In this document: piece after piece, positions 39,901 through 45,900 of the stretch
Layout of the letters: every line of letters starts with the position of its first letter
Numbering within the stretch: the first letter of the stretch is position 1
From: Escherichia coli
Lineage (GTDB): Bacteria; Pseudomonadota; Gammaproteobacteria; Enterobacterales; Enterobacteriaceae
Direction: 5' to 3' (one strand)
Assembly: GCF_003018115.1 (NCBI RefSeq)
Contig: NZ_CP027457.1
DNA length: 64,000 nt
Position numbers: made by a program

Positions 39901-42900
39901 AATGGGCGCGAAAGCGGTGCTGAAAAGCGGCGGCAACCCATTACAGAATGTGCTGGGAAGTCTGGGCGGTCTGCAATCCTCAATCCAAACCGAGTGGAAA
40001 AAGCAGGAAAAAGATTTCCAGCAGTTTGGCAAAGATGTTTGTAGCCGCGTTGTGACTCTGGAAGATAGCCGCAAAGCCCTGGTCGGGAATTTAAAATAAT
40101 CCTCTATTTTAAGACGGCATAATACTTTTTTATGCCGTTTAATTCTTCGTTTTGTTACCTGCCTCTAACTTTGTAGATCTCCAAAATATATTCACGTTGT
40201 AAATTGTTTAACGTCAAATTTCCCATACAAAGCTAAGGGATAATGCGTAGCGTTCACGTAACTGGAGGAATGAAATGGAGTTTTTCAAAAAGACGGCACT
40301 TGCCGCACTGGTTATGGGTTTTAGTGGTGCAGCATTGGCATTACCCAATATCACCATTTTAGCAACCGGCGGGACCATTGCCGGTGGTGGTGACTCCGCA
40401 ACCAAATCTAACTACACAGCGGGTAAAGTTGGCGTAGAAAATCTGGTTAATGCGGTGCCGCAACTGAAGGACATTGCGAACGTTAAAGGCGAGCAGGTAG
40501 TGAATATCGGCTCCCAGGACATGAACGATAATGTCTGGCTGACACTGGCGAAAAAAATTAACACCGACTGCGATAAGACCGACGGCTTCGTCATTACCCA
40601 CGGTACCGACACGATGGAAGAAACTGCTTACTTCCTCGACCTGACGGTGAAATGCGATAAGCCGGTGGTGATGGTCGGCGCAATGCGTCCGTCCACGTCT
40701 ATGAGCGCAGACGGTCCATTCAACCTGTATAACGCGGTAGTGACCGCAGCTGATAAAGCCTCCGCCAACCGTGGCGTGTTGGTAGTGATGAACGACACCG
40801 TGCTTGATGGCCGTGACGTCACCAAAACCAACACCACCGACGTAGCGACCTTCAAGTCTGTTAACTACGGTCCTCTGGGTTACATTCACAACGGTAAGAT
40901 TGATTACCAGCGTACCCCGGCACGTAAGCACACCAGCGACACGCCATTCGATGTCTCTAAGCTGAATGAACTGCCGAAAGTCGGCATTGTTTATAACTAC
41001 GCTAACGCATCCGATCTTCCGGCTAAAGCACTGGTAGATGCGGGCTATGATGGCATCGTGAGCGCTGGTGTGGGTAACGGCAACCTGTATAAAACCGTAT
41101 TTGACACCCTTGCGACCGCCGCGAAAAACGGCACTGCGGTCGTGCGTTCTTCCCGCGTACCGACGGGCGCTACCACTCAGGATGCCGAAGTGGATGATGC
41201 GAAATACGGCTTCGTCGCCTCTGGCACGTTGAACCCGCAAAAAGCGCGCGTTCTGCTGCAACTGGCTCTGACGCAAACCAAAGATCCGCAGCAGATCCAG
41301 CAGATCTTCAATCAGTACTAATCACCTCGCCCCGGTATCGTGCCGGGGCTTTTTCACTTCAGACTTACTTCCATTGCCAATTTTTATTACCCTGATGATA
41401 ATCACCGGAATAAATTATTCCGCGCGAGGGTTTTCGGGTGAAAAAGCAATGGATTGTTGGCACGGCACTGCTTATGTTGATGACTGGTAATGTCTGGGCA
41501 GATGGCGAACCGCCAACTGAAAATATCTTAAAAGATCAATTCAAAAAGCAGTATCACGGCATTCTCAAGCTTGATGCCATCACCTTAAAAAATCTTGATG
41601 CTAAGGGTAATCAGGCCACCTGGTCAGCGGAAGGCGATGTCTCTTCCAGTGACGATCTCTATACCTGGGTCGGTCAGTTGGCAGATTACGAACTGCTGGA
41701 ACAGACCTGGACGAAAGATAAACCGGTAAAATTCTCGGCAATGTTAACCAGTAAAGGAACGCCCGCGTCTGGCTGGTCGGTGAACTTTTACTCTTTTCAG
41801 GCGGCAGCCAGCGATCGTGGTCGGGTGGTCGACGATATCAAAACGAATAATAAATACCTGATCGTGAATAGCGAAGATTTCAATTATCGTTTTAGTCAGC
41901 TTGAGTCAGCGTTGAATACCCAGAAGAACTCGATTCCTGCGCTGGAGAAGGAAGTGAAAGAGCTTGATAAGAAAATGGCAGCGGCGCAGAAAGCAGCGGA
42001 TGCATATTGGGGAAAAGATGCAAACGGCAAGCAAATGACCCGCGAAGACGCCTTTAAAAAAATTCACCAACAGCGTGATGAGTTTAATAAACAGAACGAT
42101 AGCGAGGCGTTCGCGGTTAAATATGACAAAGAGGTTTATCAACCGGCGATTGCGGCATGTCATAAACAGAGTGAAGAGTGTTATGAAGTGCCGATTCAGC
42201 AGAAACGAGATTTCGATATCAACGAACAACGGCGACAGACTTTTCTGCAATCACAAAAACTCAGCCGTAAATTGCAGGATGACTGGGTAACGCTCGAAAA
42301 AGGGCAATATCCGTTAACGATGAAAGTTTCAGAAATAAACAGTAAAAAAGTCGCGATTTTGATGAAAATTGACGATATCAACCAAGCTAATGAACGCTGG
42401 AAAAAAGATACCGAACAACTGCGGCGCAATGGGGTGATTAAGTAAGTTTGATATAGTGCCTTTGCCGGATAATATAAAAAGTTATCCGGCAAATTATTTT
42501 TTACATTAGCCCTAGTAGCTGTGGAATGAACAAGGATATTTGCGGAATGTAAGTGATCATCATCAACGCTACTAGCAATGCAGCATAAAATGGCAGCAAT
42601 GGTTTGATTAAATGTTGAATCTTCACACCCGAGATAGAACAACCAACAAATAGCGCACTACCCACCGGCGGTGTTAACAGCCCAATACAAAGGTTGGCCA
42701 CCATCATAATACCGAAATGTACTGGGTCCATTCCCAGCTCTTGTGCAATCGGCAAGAAGATCGGTGTAAAGATTAGTACAGCCGGTGTCATGTCCATAAA
42801 GATGCCGACAATTAATAAGACGATATTAATCAGCAGCAATATGATCAGTGGGTTATCAGAAATCCCCATCAATGCGTCGCTGATCATATAAGGAATATCA

Positions 42901-45900
42901 GCATTAGTCATTGCCCAGGACATGCCCACGGAAAAACCGATCAACAGTAATACAATCGAAGTGGTAACAACCGACTCCAGAATCAGTTTGGGTAAATGGC
43001 GCCATTTTACTTCCCGGTAAATCAGCACCGAGAGAATAAATGTGTAGACAACGGCAATTGCTGACGCTTCAGTTGCGGTAAAAATGCCGCCCAGAATGCC
43101 GCCCATCACAATGAACACCAGAAGCAAACTTGGTAAGGCATCCAGAAACGCTTTACAGGACTGAGCAAAGGTTGCTCTTTCTGAAAGCGGGTAGCCACGG
43201 CGTTTAGCAATAATGCCGCAGACTATCATTACCGCAAGACCCATTAAGATCCCTGGCAAATATCCCGCCATAAATAGCGATGCTACAGAAACGCCGCCAG
43301 CTGTCAGGGAAAACACAATTAACACGTTTGAGGGCGGTATCAGTAATCCAGTAATACAAGATGAGACGTTTACAGCGGTAGAAAATGCCGGATCATAACC
43401 TTGTTTGGTCTGAATGGGATTCAGTGTGCCACCAACGGCAGCAGCTGCCGCAACGGCTGAACCAGAAATGGAACCAAACATCATATTCGCCAGGACGTTC
43501 ACATGACCAAGTGAACCAGGAACCCGACCAACCATTACCTGGGCGAGGTTAATCAAACGTATCGCAATACCGCCGCTGTTCATCAGCGTTCCGGCAAAGA
43601 TGAAAAAGGGGATTGCCAATAGGGCAAAGTTATCCAGTCCATTAGCCAGTCGCTGCGAAACAGTGATTGCCGCGATATCCCAGGGAAACATCAAAAGCAT
43701 TGAAGCTACAGTGGCAATACCGATTGAGAACGAAATGGGCATACCAATAAAGACCAACACAAAAAAACAGCCAAACAGTGTAATCGCGATATAACTATCC
43801 ATTAACTGGCCTCCTGCGCATGTTGTTTCAGTTGTTGAATGCTTTGATTAATAAAACACAAGGCATAAAACATCATCACCAATCCACTTAATGGCAGAAT
43901 GATATATACGTATCCCATCGGTATTTGCATCGCGGCAGATACCTGTGATGTTGCCAGCGTTTTATCAATTAATTTCAGGCCACCAGTCACAATGACCGAA
44001 CCGGCAAAACCTAAAATAAGAACGTTAATGACTATACTAAGAAGTAATTGCTTGCGCTTATTCAGGGCGAGAGCAAATAAATCGATAGAGAGATGTCTCT
44101 GCGCGCCGACGGTATATGCAGCACCTAATAACCCTACCCAGATCATCAAAAATCGTGCCAGCTCATCGGTTAATGTACTTGGCTGGTTAAGTACGTAGCG
44201 GCTAAATACTTGCCAGACTACGCATACAACCAGAGCAAGCATGACGGCGACAGAAAACGCGGCAATGACGCGGTCTACCGCAAGTTTCAGGCGGTTAAAT
44301 ATCATTGTAAGCATCCTGGAAAATCAGGGCCAGAGACTGGCCCGGAATATTATTGAGCAGCGTTGTCGAACTTCTCTAACAAAGCAGCTTGTTTTGGATC
44401 TTTTTTGAAGTCGTCAAACAGAGGCTGAACTGCGGCACGGAATGGTGCTTTATCCACTTTTACAATTTCACCCCCCATAGCTTTCGCCTGAGCACGTGTG
44501 TCAGCGTCAATTTTTTCCCACAATTTTTGTTGATAAGCTTCGGATTTCTTCGCTGCTGTTTCGAGGATTTGTTGCTGTTCTGGGGTTAATTTATTCCATG
44601 TTTTGGTGGAGATAACCAAAAAGTCAGGAATTGAGGCGTGTTCATCTTCAGAAAAAACTTTGGCAATTTCAATATGTCGAGTCTGCACCCAGGAAGGCAC
44701 GTTATTTTCTGCGCCATCTACTACACCTTGCTGCATCGCAGTATAAACTTCGCCAAATGAAATTGGAGTGGGTGAACCACCCATCAGTTCAATCATTTTG
44801 ATGGTGGTCGGACTTGGCTGAACACGAATTTTCAGCCCTTTAAGATCTTCTGGCTTAGTAATCGGTTTTTTCGCATAGAAACTGCGTGTACCCGCTACAT
44901 AAGCTGATAAAGCAAAAAAGCCTTTGTCTTTTGTTGAGTCCATAATTTCTTTACCAACTTCACCAAAAACAACTTTGTTGAAGTGAGCCTGATCTTTAAA
45001 TAAGAACGGCAAATTATAGATAGCATAAATATTATCAAAAGACTCCAGATCACTGGCGGAACCTTTGGTCATATCCAGAGCGCCATTTTGCAACAACTCC
45101 ATAGTTTCTCGCGCATTACCCATCTGGCTGCTGGGATAAATACGGATCACCATATTACCTTTTGACATCTGTTTTACCTCTTTCGCCAGCTCTTCAAAAC
45201 TCTGATGTACAACATGACTTCTTTCCAGGTTGTGTGCTAACTTTAACGTCACTTTTTCTGCGGCGTTTACGCCAGTGCTAACCAGAGCCAGCAAGGATGC
45301 GCAGACTAATGAGCGGGTAAATGACCTCATTTTCATAAAAAAACTCCCTGTTGAAGGATGGAAATTGGTTGATATCTAATTGTGCTTATCAGTGCTTTGT
45401 GCGACAAATTGGTTAACCTGTCTGACAACTTGTCTATGTTTATCACAACTTGAAATAAAGTCAGAAATTAAATATTAAATTTGTGCGCCAGGTTGTACAT
45501 GTTTATAATCAATAAATGACGAGTAAATATTCACTATATATATATAATAAATATCGTCGATATTTATTCAGTAAGAAATATATTTTGCCGAAGTTAATTA
45601 ACGGGGGGGGGGAAGAAGTGATTAATGCGCCCGCAGACGCATTAATGATTACTCAGCGAGGAATAATTCAAGAAGTGAGTTTAAGAATAATTTACCATGT
45701 TCCGTTATCTGCCAGTAATCCGCACATTCGGTGAGATAACCCTGGGCAATCGCCTCGTCTAACTGTGGGCGAATCACATCTTCGCAAAGCCCGGTATACG
45801 CAATAAACTCCACGCGCGGCGCGGCCTCCAGCAGACGGAAGCGATTCATAAAGAACTCAAACGGCTTATCTGCGGCTTCGACATCACGCTGGCTTTCCAG

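What the first reader, a model, noticed from the sequence alone, without database searches (positions are those of the whole stretch)
42501..45648. Orphan three-gene TRAP transporter inserted between yggM and hemW
A 3.1-kb block encodes a DctP-type solute-binding protein, a DctQ small permease and a DctM large permease, all on the minus strand downstream of hemW. From memory of the K-12 map, yggM and hemW (yggW) are direct neighbours and K-12 carries only one TRAP system (yiaMNO) elsewhere, so this looks like an accessory insertion. The block reads as more AT-rich than the flanking core genes and is bounded by a bidirectional terminator on the yggM side and an AT-rich spacer with a G10 tract and a (TA)6 run on the hemW side. 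The binding protein keeps the conserved Arg (GLKIRVQ) that coordinates a substrate carboxylate in DctP/SiaP proteins. No regulator or catabolic enzyme is linked, so the substrate cannot be inferred from context.
Basis: partly seen in the sequence, partly recalled or inferred. Interest (0 to 1): 0.6.

Follow-up and report, generated by a model that had tools for sequence, protein, structure and literature searches.

The report
Hexuronate-type TRAP transporter lost in K-12
The three genes are a real, intact TRAP uptake system, but it is an old enterobacterial locus that K-12 has deleted rather than an insertion, and comparison with other genomes points to sugar acids of the glucuronate/galacturonate type as its cargo and to the ExuR repressor as its regulator, so it is an ordinary, if uncharacterised, member of a known transporter group.

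Summary
Window 42501-45336 (minus strand) encodes an intact DctP-type binding protein, a DctQ small permease and a DctM large permease between yggM and hemW. K-12 has these two genes adjacent.

The operon is accessory in E. coli: 1493 of 5426 complete genomes carry it and 3911 have hemW next to yggM. It is not an insertion. The same operon lies directly downstream of hemW in some Salmonella enterica genomes and in Citrobacter, Kluyvera, Klebsiella and other genera. Its divergence equals that of the flanking core genes. No mobility marks are present. K-12 carries about 140 bp of REP sequence in its place.

The substrate can be inferred:
- The closest solved structures are D-glucuronate/D-galacturonate binders.
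- The carboxylate-binding Arg/Arg/Asn triad is kept.
- In Aeromonas and Pantoea the 60%-identical orthologue sits where exuT sits in K-12, between uxaC and exuR.
- Two palindromic boxes 21 bp apart are conserved upstream in 36 loci. A matrix built from them picks out only the uxaB and exuT promoter regions in K-12 DNA.

Best reading: a high-affinity hexuronate TRAP transporter in the ExuR regulon. It is a new member of a known kind, of low to moderate interest.

The parts
44350..45336 (-). trapP: DctP-family periplasmic solute-binding protein, 328 aa. It has a Sec signal peptide (residues 1-25, ...VNA|AEK) and ligand residues R151, R171 and N211.
   Evidence: TIGR00787, 285.7 bits. (best PDB matches 4ovr, 4n15/4n17, 4mhf/4mij, 4x8r, 4n91). 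(R151, R171, N212 and D238 invariant, N36 and N211 nearly invariant, in 16 orthologues). (TRAP binding-protein fold, TM 0.73-0.81).
43802..44314 (-). trapQ: DctQ small membrane subunit, 170 aa. RefSeq starts it at 44305 (167 aa). Its stop overlaps the trapM start (ATGA).
   Evidence: PF04290, 3.5e-30. (RefSeq annotation in strain CREC-544).
42501..43802 (-). trapM: DctM large membrane subunit, 433 aa.
   Evidence: TIGR00786, 472 bits. The YiaN equivalog scores only 295 against a cut-off of 800, so it is not YiaN.
44327..44343 (-). GC-rich hairpin in the 35-nt spacer between trapP and trapQ. It is a probable partial terminator or mRNA stabiliser that would give an excess of binding protein (inferred).
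   Evidence: 7 pairs, 6 of them G-C, then TGATTTT. Herman 2020 notes that the binding protein is usually made in excess.
42461..42493 (.). Hairpin between the convergent yggM and trapM genes. It is an intrinsic terminator for yggM (T-run on the plus strand). On the minus strand the stem has no T-run.
   Evidence: I6, perfect 12-nt arms.
45414..45432 (.). Box 1: palindromic GntR/FadR-type operator AAGTTGTCAGACAGGTTA, with core TGTCAGACA at 45419-45427, 83-91 nt upstream of the ATG. Predicted ExuR site.
   Evidence: conserved in 36 loci of more than 10 genera. (18.0 bits with a matrix built without any Escherichia sequence; the only other sites of at least 18 bits in 135 kb are upstream of uxaB and exuT in K-12).
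45393..45411 (.). Box 2: second operator-like palindrome, with core TGTCGCACA at 45398-45406. It lies exactly 21 bp from box 1. Other genera have TGTCATACA here.
   Evidence: 21-bp spacing invariant in the 36 loci. (conserved in E. coli haplotypes).
45406..45423 (.). UxuR-consensus-like box between boxes 1 and 2, found only in Escherichia. It contains GGTTAACCAATTT, identical to a 13-mer in the K-12 gntP-uxuA spacer.
   Evidence: best match to AAATTGGTATACCAATTT in the whole 64-kb window. (the 13-mer occurs once in the window, 0.08 expected; elsewhere only in Escherichia TRAP promoters and at L045:6462-6474). (UxuR target and consensus).
45363..45378 (-). Box 3: conserved AGATATCAACCAAT, 27-42 nt upstream of the ATG. 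It resembles the right half of the K-12 uxaC-proximal site (ATCACACCAATTTCC). Its role is unknown.
45443..45447 (-). Conserved TGTGA, a possible CRP half-site (hypothesis only).
   Evidence: conserved in most genera. No good second half-site was found.
45480..45499 (-). Conserved upstream element TGTACAACCTGGCGCACAAA (other genera have ...ACAGCGCACAAAA). Function unknown.
45344..45349 (-). Ribosome-binding site AGGGAG, 8-13 nt before the trapP start.
   Evidence: Read from the sequence.
45614..45653 (-). Inverted repeat overlapping the hemW stop codon (TTAATGCG...CGCATTAA), conserved in Salmonella. Probable end of the hemW transcript.
   Evidence: I4. (alignment).
45603..45612 (+). G10 homopolymer. 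It varies between strains and is not part of the conserved regulatory region.
   Evidence: G6 in L051, absent in L052.
42460..45648 (.). The 3189-bp segment that is replaced by about 140 bp of REP sequence in K-12-type genomes.

Best explanation
[quoted passage not shown] K-12 and about 72% of complete E. coli genomes have lost it.

Shown here:
- the family membership of all three proteins;
- synteny across genera;
- divergence equal to that of the flanking core genes;
- the absence of mobility marks.

Inferred mechanism: the secreted binding protein captures a hexuronate (D-galacturonate and/or D-glucuronate) in the periplasm. R171, R151 and N211 hold the carboxylate. The protein closes and docks on the Q-M membrane complex, which moves the sugar acid inward by cation-coupled secondary transport. 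This is the mechanism established for SiaPQM-type TRAP systems. The sugar acid then enters the UxaC / UxaB-UxaA / UxuB-UxuA (Ashwell) pathway, whose genes lie elsewhere on the chromosome.

Inferred regulation: the unlinked repressor ExuR binds two palindromic operators 21 bp apart, 60-95 nt upstream of trapP. Escherichia has an extra UxuR-type box between them. The system would act as a second, high-affinity route beside the MFS transporter ExuT.
For: Family: NCBIfam dctP and dctM score above their cut-offs, Pfam DctQ matches, and Foldseek's top hits are all TRAP binding proteins.

Ancestral locus:
- rdgB-hemW-trapPQM-(yggM/ansB)-yggN is found in some Salmonella enterica genomes, Citrobacter, Kluyvera, Klebsiella, Phytobacter and others.
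- Identity of the TRAP genes matches that of the flanks, both within E. coli and between E. coli and Salmonella.
- There is no tRNA gene and no flanking repeat.
- 1493 genomes carry the operon and 3911 have hemW next to yggM.

Substrate:
- The best PDB matches are 4ovr, 4n15/4n17/4ln5 (Bamb_6123), 4mhf/4mij (Bpro_3107), 4x8r and 4n91 (Apre_1383), with E 1e-68 to 1e-60.
- Herman et al. 2020 describe Apre_1383 as a D-glucuronate binder and Bpro_3107 as a D-glucuronate/D-galacturonate binder. They name Arg150, Arg170 and Asn210 as the conserved ligand triad. The equivalents here are R151, R171 and N211.
- In Aeromonas rivuli, A. molluscorum and Pantoea sp. IMH the 60%-identical orthologue lies between uxaC (with uxaB and uxaA) and exuR. 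All of these score above the NCBIfam cut-offs. This is the slot that exuT fills in K-12.

Regulation:
- Two boxes, TGTCnGACA and TGTCATACA, are always 21 bp apart in 36 loci.
- A matrix built from non-Escherichia boxes was scanned over 135 kb of E. coli DNA. It gives only three sites of at least 18 bits: upstream of uxaB (21.6), the uxaC-exuT spacer (18.1) and this promoter (18.0).
- One of 30 shuffles reached 18 bits. DgoR IR1 scores 11.3 and the lgo region 6.8.
Against: - Identity to the solved hexuronate binders is only 39-41%. TRAP binding proteins can change ligand at that distance.
- Two residues that Herman et al. link to glucuronate binding in STM3169 and Apre_1383 (Gln36, Glu74) appear as L37 and A75 here, by numbering offset. 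The N-terminal segment could not be aligned residue by residue.
- The gene-context evidence comes from 60%-identical orthologues. In the enteric genera themselves the operon is unlinked to uxa, uxu and exuR.
- No ExuR binding data exist for these boxes. FadR-type operators of different regulators look alike: the DgoR site still scores 11 bits.
- The uxaB hit lies 229 nt upstream of that gene's start, and I could not confirm from a held paper that it is a known ExuR site.
- The representative genomes of E. albertii, E. fergusonii, S. bongori and S. enterica LT2 gave no hit. Loss must therefore have been frequent, or re-acquisition by homologous recombination occurred.
- The structural model is of moderate quality only (pLDDT 73.9).
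Confidence: 0.68

Rival explanations
1. One reading: a horizontally acquired accessory cassette, inserted between yggM and hemW in some E. coli lineages, with an unknown organic-acid substrate.
For: - It is absent from K-12, O157:H7, O55:H7 and BL21-type genomes.
- It is present in only 27% of complete genomes.
- GC is 0.42-0.46 against 0.52-0.55 in the flanks, and GC3 falls as low as 0.39.
- The representative genomes of other Escherichia species gave no hit.
- The block of 14 synonymous differences at the hemW 3' end is linked to the TRAP haplotype, which shows that recombination moves this segment.
Against: - The same operon sits at the same junction in many genera.
- Divergence from Salmonella (72-80%) equals that of the flanking core genes (69-84%). 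Divergence among E. coli haplotypes equals that of the flanks.
- There is no integrase, IS element, tRNA gene or target duplication.
- yggM, which is a core gene here, is equally AT-rich.
- In other genera the TRAP GC content tracks the host genome.
Confidence: 0.1
2. It is a TRAP transporter for a different sugar acid (for example D- or L-galactonate, D-mannonate, fructuronate, gluconate or a uronate derivative). A FadR-type repressor other than ExuR would control it, such as UxuR, DgoR or an uncharacterised paralogue.
For: - Identity to hexuronate binders is only about 40%.
- STM3169 also showed a thermal shift with D-galactonate.
- The residue positions equivalent to Gln36 and Glu74 differ here.
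- FadR-family operators share the TGTnnnACA core, and DgoR IR1 scores 11.3 bits.
- Escherichia has a UxuR-type box in the promoter.
Against: - All nine best PDB matches come from one set of EFI TRAP binding-protein entries, and a held paper names three of them as hexuronate binders or as the template used for one.
- The orthologues in Aeromonas and Pantoea lie inside a uxaCBA/exuR cluster, not a dgo, lgo or uxu cluster.
- The box matrix scores the uxaB and exuT regions 7-10 bits above the dgo operator and finds nothing in the lgo or uxu spacers.
Confidence: 0.17
3. It is a C4-dicarboxylate (succinate, fumarate, malate) DctPQM transporter, as the generic 'DctP' family name suggests.
For: The family names in NCBIfam and Pfam. 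The conserved carboxylate-binding Arg.
Against: - True C4-dicarboxylate DctP structures (9dsy, 9dtl, 9ht3) match far worse (E 1e-31 to 1e-33) than the hexuronate group (1e-58 to 1e-68).
- No DctBD-type two-component system is linked.
- The operators are of GntR/FadR type.
Confidence: 0.03

Closest known systems
EFI hexuronate-binding TRAP binding proteins: Bamb_6123 (4N15/4N17/4LN5), Bpro_3107 (4MHF/4MIJ), Apre_1383 (4N91), and the Xanthobacter protein 4OVR
   Same: They are the best sequence and fold matches. They share the DctP fold and the Arg/Arg/Asn carboxylate-binding triad. Each is part of a P-Q-M operon.
   Different: Identity is only 39-41%. The hosts are Beta- and Alphaproteobacteria and Firmicutes. 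The ligand of the E. coli protein is untested. The N-terminal ligand-contact residues could not be matched.
STM3169-STM3171 of Salmonella Typhimurium LT2 (D-glucuronate TRAP transporter; Herman et al. 2020, PMC7660916)
   Same: It is an enterobacterial three-gene TRAP operon with no linked catabolic genes. Its binding protein binds D-glucuronate with a KD of 0.17-0.25 uM. It was proposed as a high-affinity partner of ExuT.
   Different: It is not the same orthologue. The ligand-residue numbering and identities differ (N35/Q36/E74 against N36/L37/A75). The published intact mass (35741.96 Da) does not fit the Salmonella orthologues of the present protein. No hit for the present gene was returned from the S. 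enterica representative genome.
ExuT, the MFS aldohexuronate transporter of E. coli K-12
   Same: It has the same predicted substrates and regulon. In Aeromonas and Pantoea sp. IMH the TRAP operon occupies the slot between uxaC and exuR that exuT occupies in K-12. An operator of the same type is present.
   Different: It belongs to an unrelated protein family: a single-component proton symporter with no binding protein. It is expected to have lower affinity.
YiaMNO, the only TRAP system of K-12 (2,3-diketo-L-gulonate)
   Same: It has the same three-component architecture and belongs to the same three protein families.
   Different: It is a distinct subfamily. The Q and M proteins here score 37 and 295 bits against cut-offs of 260 and 800 for the YiaM and YiaN equivalog models. 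The locus and regulon are different.
SiaPQM of Haemophilus influenzae (sialic acid)
   Same: It is the mechanistic model for TRAP transport: Arg-carboxylate contact, closure of the binding protein, and a Q-M membrane unit.
   Different: The substrate is different. Q and M are fused in HiSiaQM. Similarity is weaker, with E about 1e-40 for the binding protein.
GaaPQM of Agrobacterium tumefaciens (galacturonate TRAP; Zhao and Binns 2016, cited in PMC5812351)
   Same: It is a TRAP system assigned to galacturonate uptake.
   Different: It was not compared by sequence here. It is known to me only from the citation.

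Membership tests
TRAP transporter (DctP-type, TC 2.A.56) | Periplasmic DctP-family binding protein (PF03480 / TIGR00787) | tested here: met
   (285.7 bits against a cut-off of 175). (homologues carry PF03480). (fold).
TRAP transporter (DctP-type, TC 2.A.56) | Small membrane subunit DctQ (PF04290) | tested here: met
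   (3.5e-30, model positions 1-129 of 132).
TRAP transporter (DctP-type, TC 2.A.56) | Large membrane subunit DctM (PF06808 / TIGR00786) | tested here: met
   (472 bits against a cut-off of 268). (PF06808 on the 95%-identical Salmonella orthologue).
TRAP transporter (DctP-type, TC 2.A.56) | Conserved Arg that binds the substrate carboxylate | tested here: met
   R171 in GLKIRVQ aligns with the Arg of 4ovr and 4n15 and is invariant in 16 orthologues. Its role is described.
TRAP transporter (DctP-type, TC 2.A.56) | Binding-protein-dependent, ion-gradient-driven uptake | not testable with these tools
   Needs transport assays.
Hexuronate-binding TRAP binding-protein group | The closest characterised or solved relatives bind D-glucuronate or D-galacturonate | tested here: met
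[quoted passage not shown]
Hexuronate-binding TRAP binding-protein group | Arg150 / Arg170 / Asn210 triad (STM3169 numbering) | tested here: met
   R151, R171 and N211.
Hexuronate-binding TRAP binding-protein group | Asn35, Gln36, Glu74 and Asp237 of the glucuronate-specific type (STM3169, Apre_1383) | tested here: inconclusive
   By numbering offset, N36 and D238 are present while L37 and A75 differ. No residue-level alignment of the N-terminal part was available. Bpro_3107 also uses alternative residues.
Hexuronate-binding TRAP binding-protein group | Genomic association with hexuronate catabolic genes | tested here: met
   Met for the 60%-identical orthologues in Aeromonas (two species) and Pantoea sp. 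IMH: uxaA-uxaB-uxaC, divergent from trapPQM-exuR. Not met in E. coli or in the other enteric genera.
Hexuronate-binding TRAP binding-protein group | Measured binding of a hexuronate | not testable with these tools
   Needs DSF, ITC or fluorescence titration.
ExuR (ExuR/UxuR) regulon | Operator upstream that resembles operators of known regulon members | tested here: met
   (reciprocal matrix test: uxaB 21.6, exuT 18.1 and TRAP 18.0 bits, next best 14.2). (UxuR-type 13-mer shared with the uxuA promoter).
ExuR (ExuR/UxuR) regulon | Repressor binding and induction by hexuronates | not testable with these tools
   Needs gel shifts, ChIP or reporter fusions.
Horizontally inserted genomic islet | Absent from the same site in related genera | tested here: not met
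   Present directly downstream of hemW in at least nine genera.
Horizontally inserted genomic islet | Mobility marks (integrase, IS element, tRNA target, flanking direct repeats) | tested here: not met
Horizontally inserted genomic islet | Atypical base composition | tested here: met
   The core gene yggM shares this composition.

The most novel reading that the evidence does not exclude
The presence or absence of this operon is an old, recombination-shuffled polymorphism in E. coli. It would give carriers, including the O103 and O111 strains seen, a second, high-affinity hexuronate uptake route wired to both ExuR and UxuR through an operator arrangement found only in Escherichia. ExuR has been reported to activate the LEE virulence locus of EHEC (cited). 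Carriage could therefore change how such strains sense and compete for diet-derived galacturonate in the gut.
Probability: 0.12. Interest if true: 0.5.

Novelty: new member of a known kind. Interest (0 to 1): 0.27.

Why it matters
The result corrects a natural misreading. 'Absent from K-12 and AT-rich' does not mean 'inserted'. Here K-12 is the derived, deleted state of a locus that is conserved across Enterobacteriaceae.

It also turns a generic RefSeq label ('TRAP transporter substrate-binding protein') into a testable assignment: hexuronate uptake under ExuR control. About a quarter of sequenced E. coli carry the operon, and so do many Klebsiella, Citrobacter and Kluyvera species and some Salmonella. 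Hexuronates are relevant gut carbon sources and signals.

The transporter class, the ligand class and the regulator are all already known, so the gain is incremental.

Tried and rejected
1. I scanned the upstream regions of 40 orthologous loci for the UxuR consensus AAATTGGTATACCAATTT. Only Escherichia has a good match. A conserved UxuR box was therefore rejected, and de novo footprinting found the TGTCnGACA / TGTCATACA pair instead.
2. I tried to equate the protein with the characterised STM3169. The residue numbering does not fit, and the published intact mass does not match any Salmonella orthologue with any plausible signal cleavage site or tag. I treat it as a paralogue.
3. Vetting 2015, Suvorova 2011 and Bouvier 2019 are not held in the paper library. 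The ligands of several PDB entries, and any published ExuR motif or prior regulon prediction for this operon, could not be checked.
4. A search with the 154-bp K-12 spacer alone was swamped by REP copies. I replaced it with a 556-bp junction query.
5. Rfam found nothing credible in 42300-45900.
6. The sigma-70 consensus scan gave no more sites than the shuffled sequences did. I could not place the -35 and -10 elements or a full CRP site with any confidence.
7. The AlphaFold model has only moderate confidence, with residues 192-234 poorly modelled. I used it for fold assignment only, not for binding-site analysis.
8. The phylogroup of the roughly 940 genomes that carry the 97.6%-type allele could not be determined with the tools.

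Full report
**What is there**

Window 42501-45336 holds three intact minus-strand ORFs downstream of hemW.
- The first is a 328-aa DctP-family binding protein at 44350-45336. It matches TIGR00787 at 285.7 bits against a cut-off of 175. Reading the sequence, it has a typical signal peptide ending in VNA|AEK.
- The second is a 170-aa small permease at 43802-44314. It matches Pfam DctQ at 3.5e-30. RefSeq annotates a start 9 nt further in.
- The third is a 433-aa large permease at 42501-43802. It matches TIGR00786 at 472 bits against a cut-off of 268.

The Q stop and the M start overlap (ATGA). A GC-rich hairpin sits in the P-Q spacer at 44327-44343. This fits the usual excess of binding protein over the membrane subunits.

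- The G10 tract is at 45603-45612 and the (TA)6 run at 45535-45546.
- A 13-pair hairpin lies at 42461-42493. Its T-run serves yggM only.
- GC is 0.42-0.46 for the three genes, against 0.52-0.55 for ansB, hemW and rdgB. yggM is equally low, at 0.445.
- In K-12 MG1655, hemW and yggM are neighbours separated by 154 bp.

**Accessory, but not inserted**

In 5426 complete E. coli genomes, 1493 carry the block. Of these, 1460 have it at full length, at 95-100% identity, and it is always annotated only as 'TRAP transporter ...'. A further 3911 genomes have hemW next to yggM.

The 90%-identical Salmonella enterica protein P0008 is encoded at the same place: rdgB-hemW-P-Q-M-DUF1202(yggM)-ansB-yggN. A scan of one genome per species found the operon directly downstream of hemW in many taxa:
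- Escherichia sp. MOD1
- four Citrobacter species
- Pseudocitrobacter
- six Kluyvera species
- seven Klebsiella species
- Phytobacter and others

Nucleotide identity tells the same story.

| Comparison | TRAP genes | Flanking genes |
|---|---|---|
| Window vs Salmonella | 72-80% | 69-84% |
| Among three E. coli haplotypes | 94.7-99.2% | 94.4-99% |

There is no tRNA gene, IS element, integrase or flanking direct repeat. In other genera the TRAP GC content follows that of the host genome.

The simplest reading is vertical inheritance with loss. In K-12, window 42460-45648 is replaced by about 140 bp of REP sequence.

Recombination has shuffled the edges.
- The last ~50 nt of hemW carry 14 synonymous differences from K-12. 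They are identical in all three E. coli carrier haplotypes. The Escherichia sp. MOD1 carrier has the K-12-like end.
- One strain lost the region through an IS1-flanked deletion.

A caveat: the representative genomes of other Escherichia species and of S. enterica and S. bongori gave no hit. Losses must therefore have been frequent.

**Substrate**

The nine best PDB matches (E 1e-68 to 1e-58) all come from one set of EFI TRAP binding-protein entries: 4ovr, 4n15/4n17, 4ln5, 4mhf/4mij, 4x8r, 4n91, 4n8y and 4xfe. The fold search returns the same set, with TM 0.73-0.81, from a model of moderate confidence.

Herman et al. 2020 (PMC7660916) describe 4N91 (Apre_1383) as a D-glucuronate binder and 4MHF (Bpro_3107) as a D-glucuronate/D-galacturonate binder. 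They used 4N15 as the template for the D-glucuronate-binding STM3169. They name Arg150, Arg170 and Asn210 as the shared ligand contacts. The protein here has R151, R171 and N211, which are invariant or nearly so in 16 orthologues.

Identity to 4ovr and 4n15 is only 39-41%, so homology alone is not enough.

Gene context supplies the missing link. In Aeromonas rivuli, A. molluscorum and Pantoea sp. IMH the 60%-identical orthologue is transcribed divergently from uxaC-uxaB-uxaA and is followed by exuR. NCBIfam confirms these assignments, all above their cut-offs:
- glucuronate isomerase, 671-693 bits
- tagaturonate reductase, 725-755 bits
- the ExuR equivalog, 442-501 bits

In K-12 that same slot holds exuT.

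The protein is not STM3169 itself. The residue numbering and the published intact mass do not fit.

**Regulation**

An alignment of the upstream regions shows two palindromes. They are TGTCnGACA (box 1, window 45419-45427) and TGTCATACA (box 2, TGTCGCACA in E. coli, 45398-45406).
- They are always exactly 21 bp apart.
- They lie 59-104 nt before the start codon.
- They occur in 36 loci from more than 10 genera.
- Aeromonas and Pantoea, where exuR is adjacent, keep box 1 only.

Two closely spaced inverted repeats over the promoter is the arrangement described for the related FadR-type repressor DgoR.

I built a matrix from the non-Escherichia boxes only and scanned 135 kb of E. coli DNA. Three sites scored at least 18 bits:
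- upstream of uxaB, 21.6 bits
- the uxaC-exuT spacer (AAAGTTGTATGACAAGTTA), 18.1 bits
- this promoter, 18.0 bits

The next site scores 14.2 and lies inside uxaC. The DgoR IR1 operator scores 11.3 and the lgo region 6.8. One of 30 shuffles reached 18 bits.

Between the two boxes, Escherichia alone has GGTTAACCAATTT. This is the best match to the UxuR consensus in the 64-kb window. It is identical to a 13-mer in the gntP-uxuA spacer, which is the sole SELEX target of UxuR.

I infer ExuR control, probably with UxuR input in Escherichia. No binding data exist. A conserved TGTGA at 45443-45447 may be a CRP half-site, but this is speculative. I could not place the promoter hexamers.

**Mechanism**

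The mechanism is inferred from established TRAP biology, with SiaPQM as the model.
1. The binding protein traps the hexuronate through its carboxylate.
2. It closes and delivers the sugar acid to the Q-M unit.
3. The Q-M unit imports it with a cation gradient.
4. The Ashwell pathway enzymes, encoded elsewhere on the chromosome, catabolise it.

As proposed for STM3169, the system would be a high-affinity complement to ExuT.

**Comparison and verdict**

All defining TRAP features that can be tested in silico are met. Membership of the hexuronate group is supported by relatives, by the ligand triad and by orthologue context, but it has not been tested by ligand binding. The 'inserted island' features are not met, apart from base composition.

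This is a new, uncharacterised member of a known kind. It is useful for annotation and as a caution about taking K-12 as the reference state, but it would not surprise a specialist.

The two most relevant comparative-genomics papers are not in the held library. I therefore cannot exclude that the ExuR-regulon assignment has already been published.

Noticed in passing
window 45649-45700 (3' end of hemW): The last ~50 nt of hemW differ from K-12 at 14 positions, all synonymous. They are 100% identical in three divergent E. coli carrier haplotypes. The Escherichia sp. MOD1 carrier has the K-12-like version. This looks like a recombination breakpoint inside hemW.
   Followed up: partly
window 42446-42459: The 14 nt after the yggM stop codon are identical in the window and in K-12, but differ in the other carrier haplotypes (L051, L052, L004). 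The K-12 deletion allele and this B1-type carrier allele therefore share their left edge.
   Followed up: partly
window 45603-45612: The G10 tract varies between strains (G6 in L051, absent in L052). It lies outside the conserved promoter elements.
   Followed up: partly
L040:4400-18400 (Pantoea sp. IMH): The hexuronate cluster ygjV-uxaA-uxaB-uxaC / trapPQM-exuR lies directly beside the yggR...rdgB-hemW block. This is the opposite side of that block from where the TRAP operon lies in E. coli.
   Followed up: no
L002, L003, L041: Contigs filed under a Collinsella MAG, a Bacillota MAG and an Alicyclobacillaceae genome carry this E. coli TRAP operon at 99-100% protein identity. This is probably contamination or misbinning.
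   Followed up: no
L050 (E. coli strain A30): Two IS1 copies abut hemW, and the sequence on the other side is yghO. This is a separate, IS-associated loss of the TRAP-yggM side.
   Followed up: no
L044:8581-8599 (K-12 uxaC coding region) and L048:6901-6919 (229 nt upstream of uxaB, at the dgcF stop codon): Strong matches to the TRAP-derived operator matrix (14.2 and 21.6 bits) lie at unexpected distances from the start codons. They may be auxiliary ExuR sites.
   Followed up: no
window 41438-42445 (yggM): yggM is as AT-rich as the TRAP genes (GC 0.445). It is only 63% identical in protein sequence to its Salmonella counterpart. It was not detected in the Citrobacter loci, and only 33-38% homologues were found in Klebsiella and Kluyvera.
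   Followed up: no
window 42374-42385 and 45365-45376: A perfect 12-nt inverted repeat, GATATCAACCAA, brackets the TRAP block. One arm is in yggM and the other is box 3 of the promoter. About 0.4 such pairs are expected by chance.
   Followed up: no
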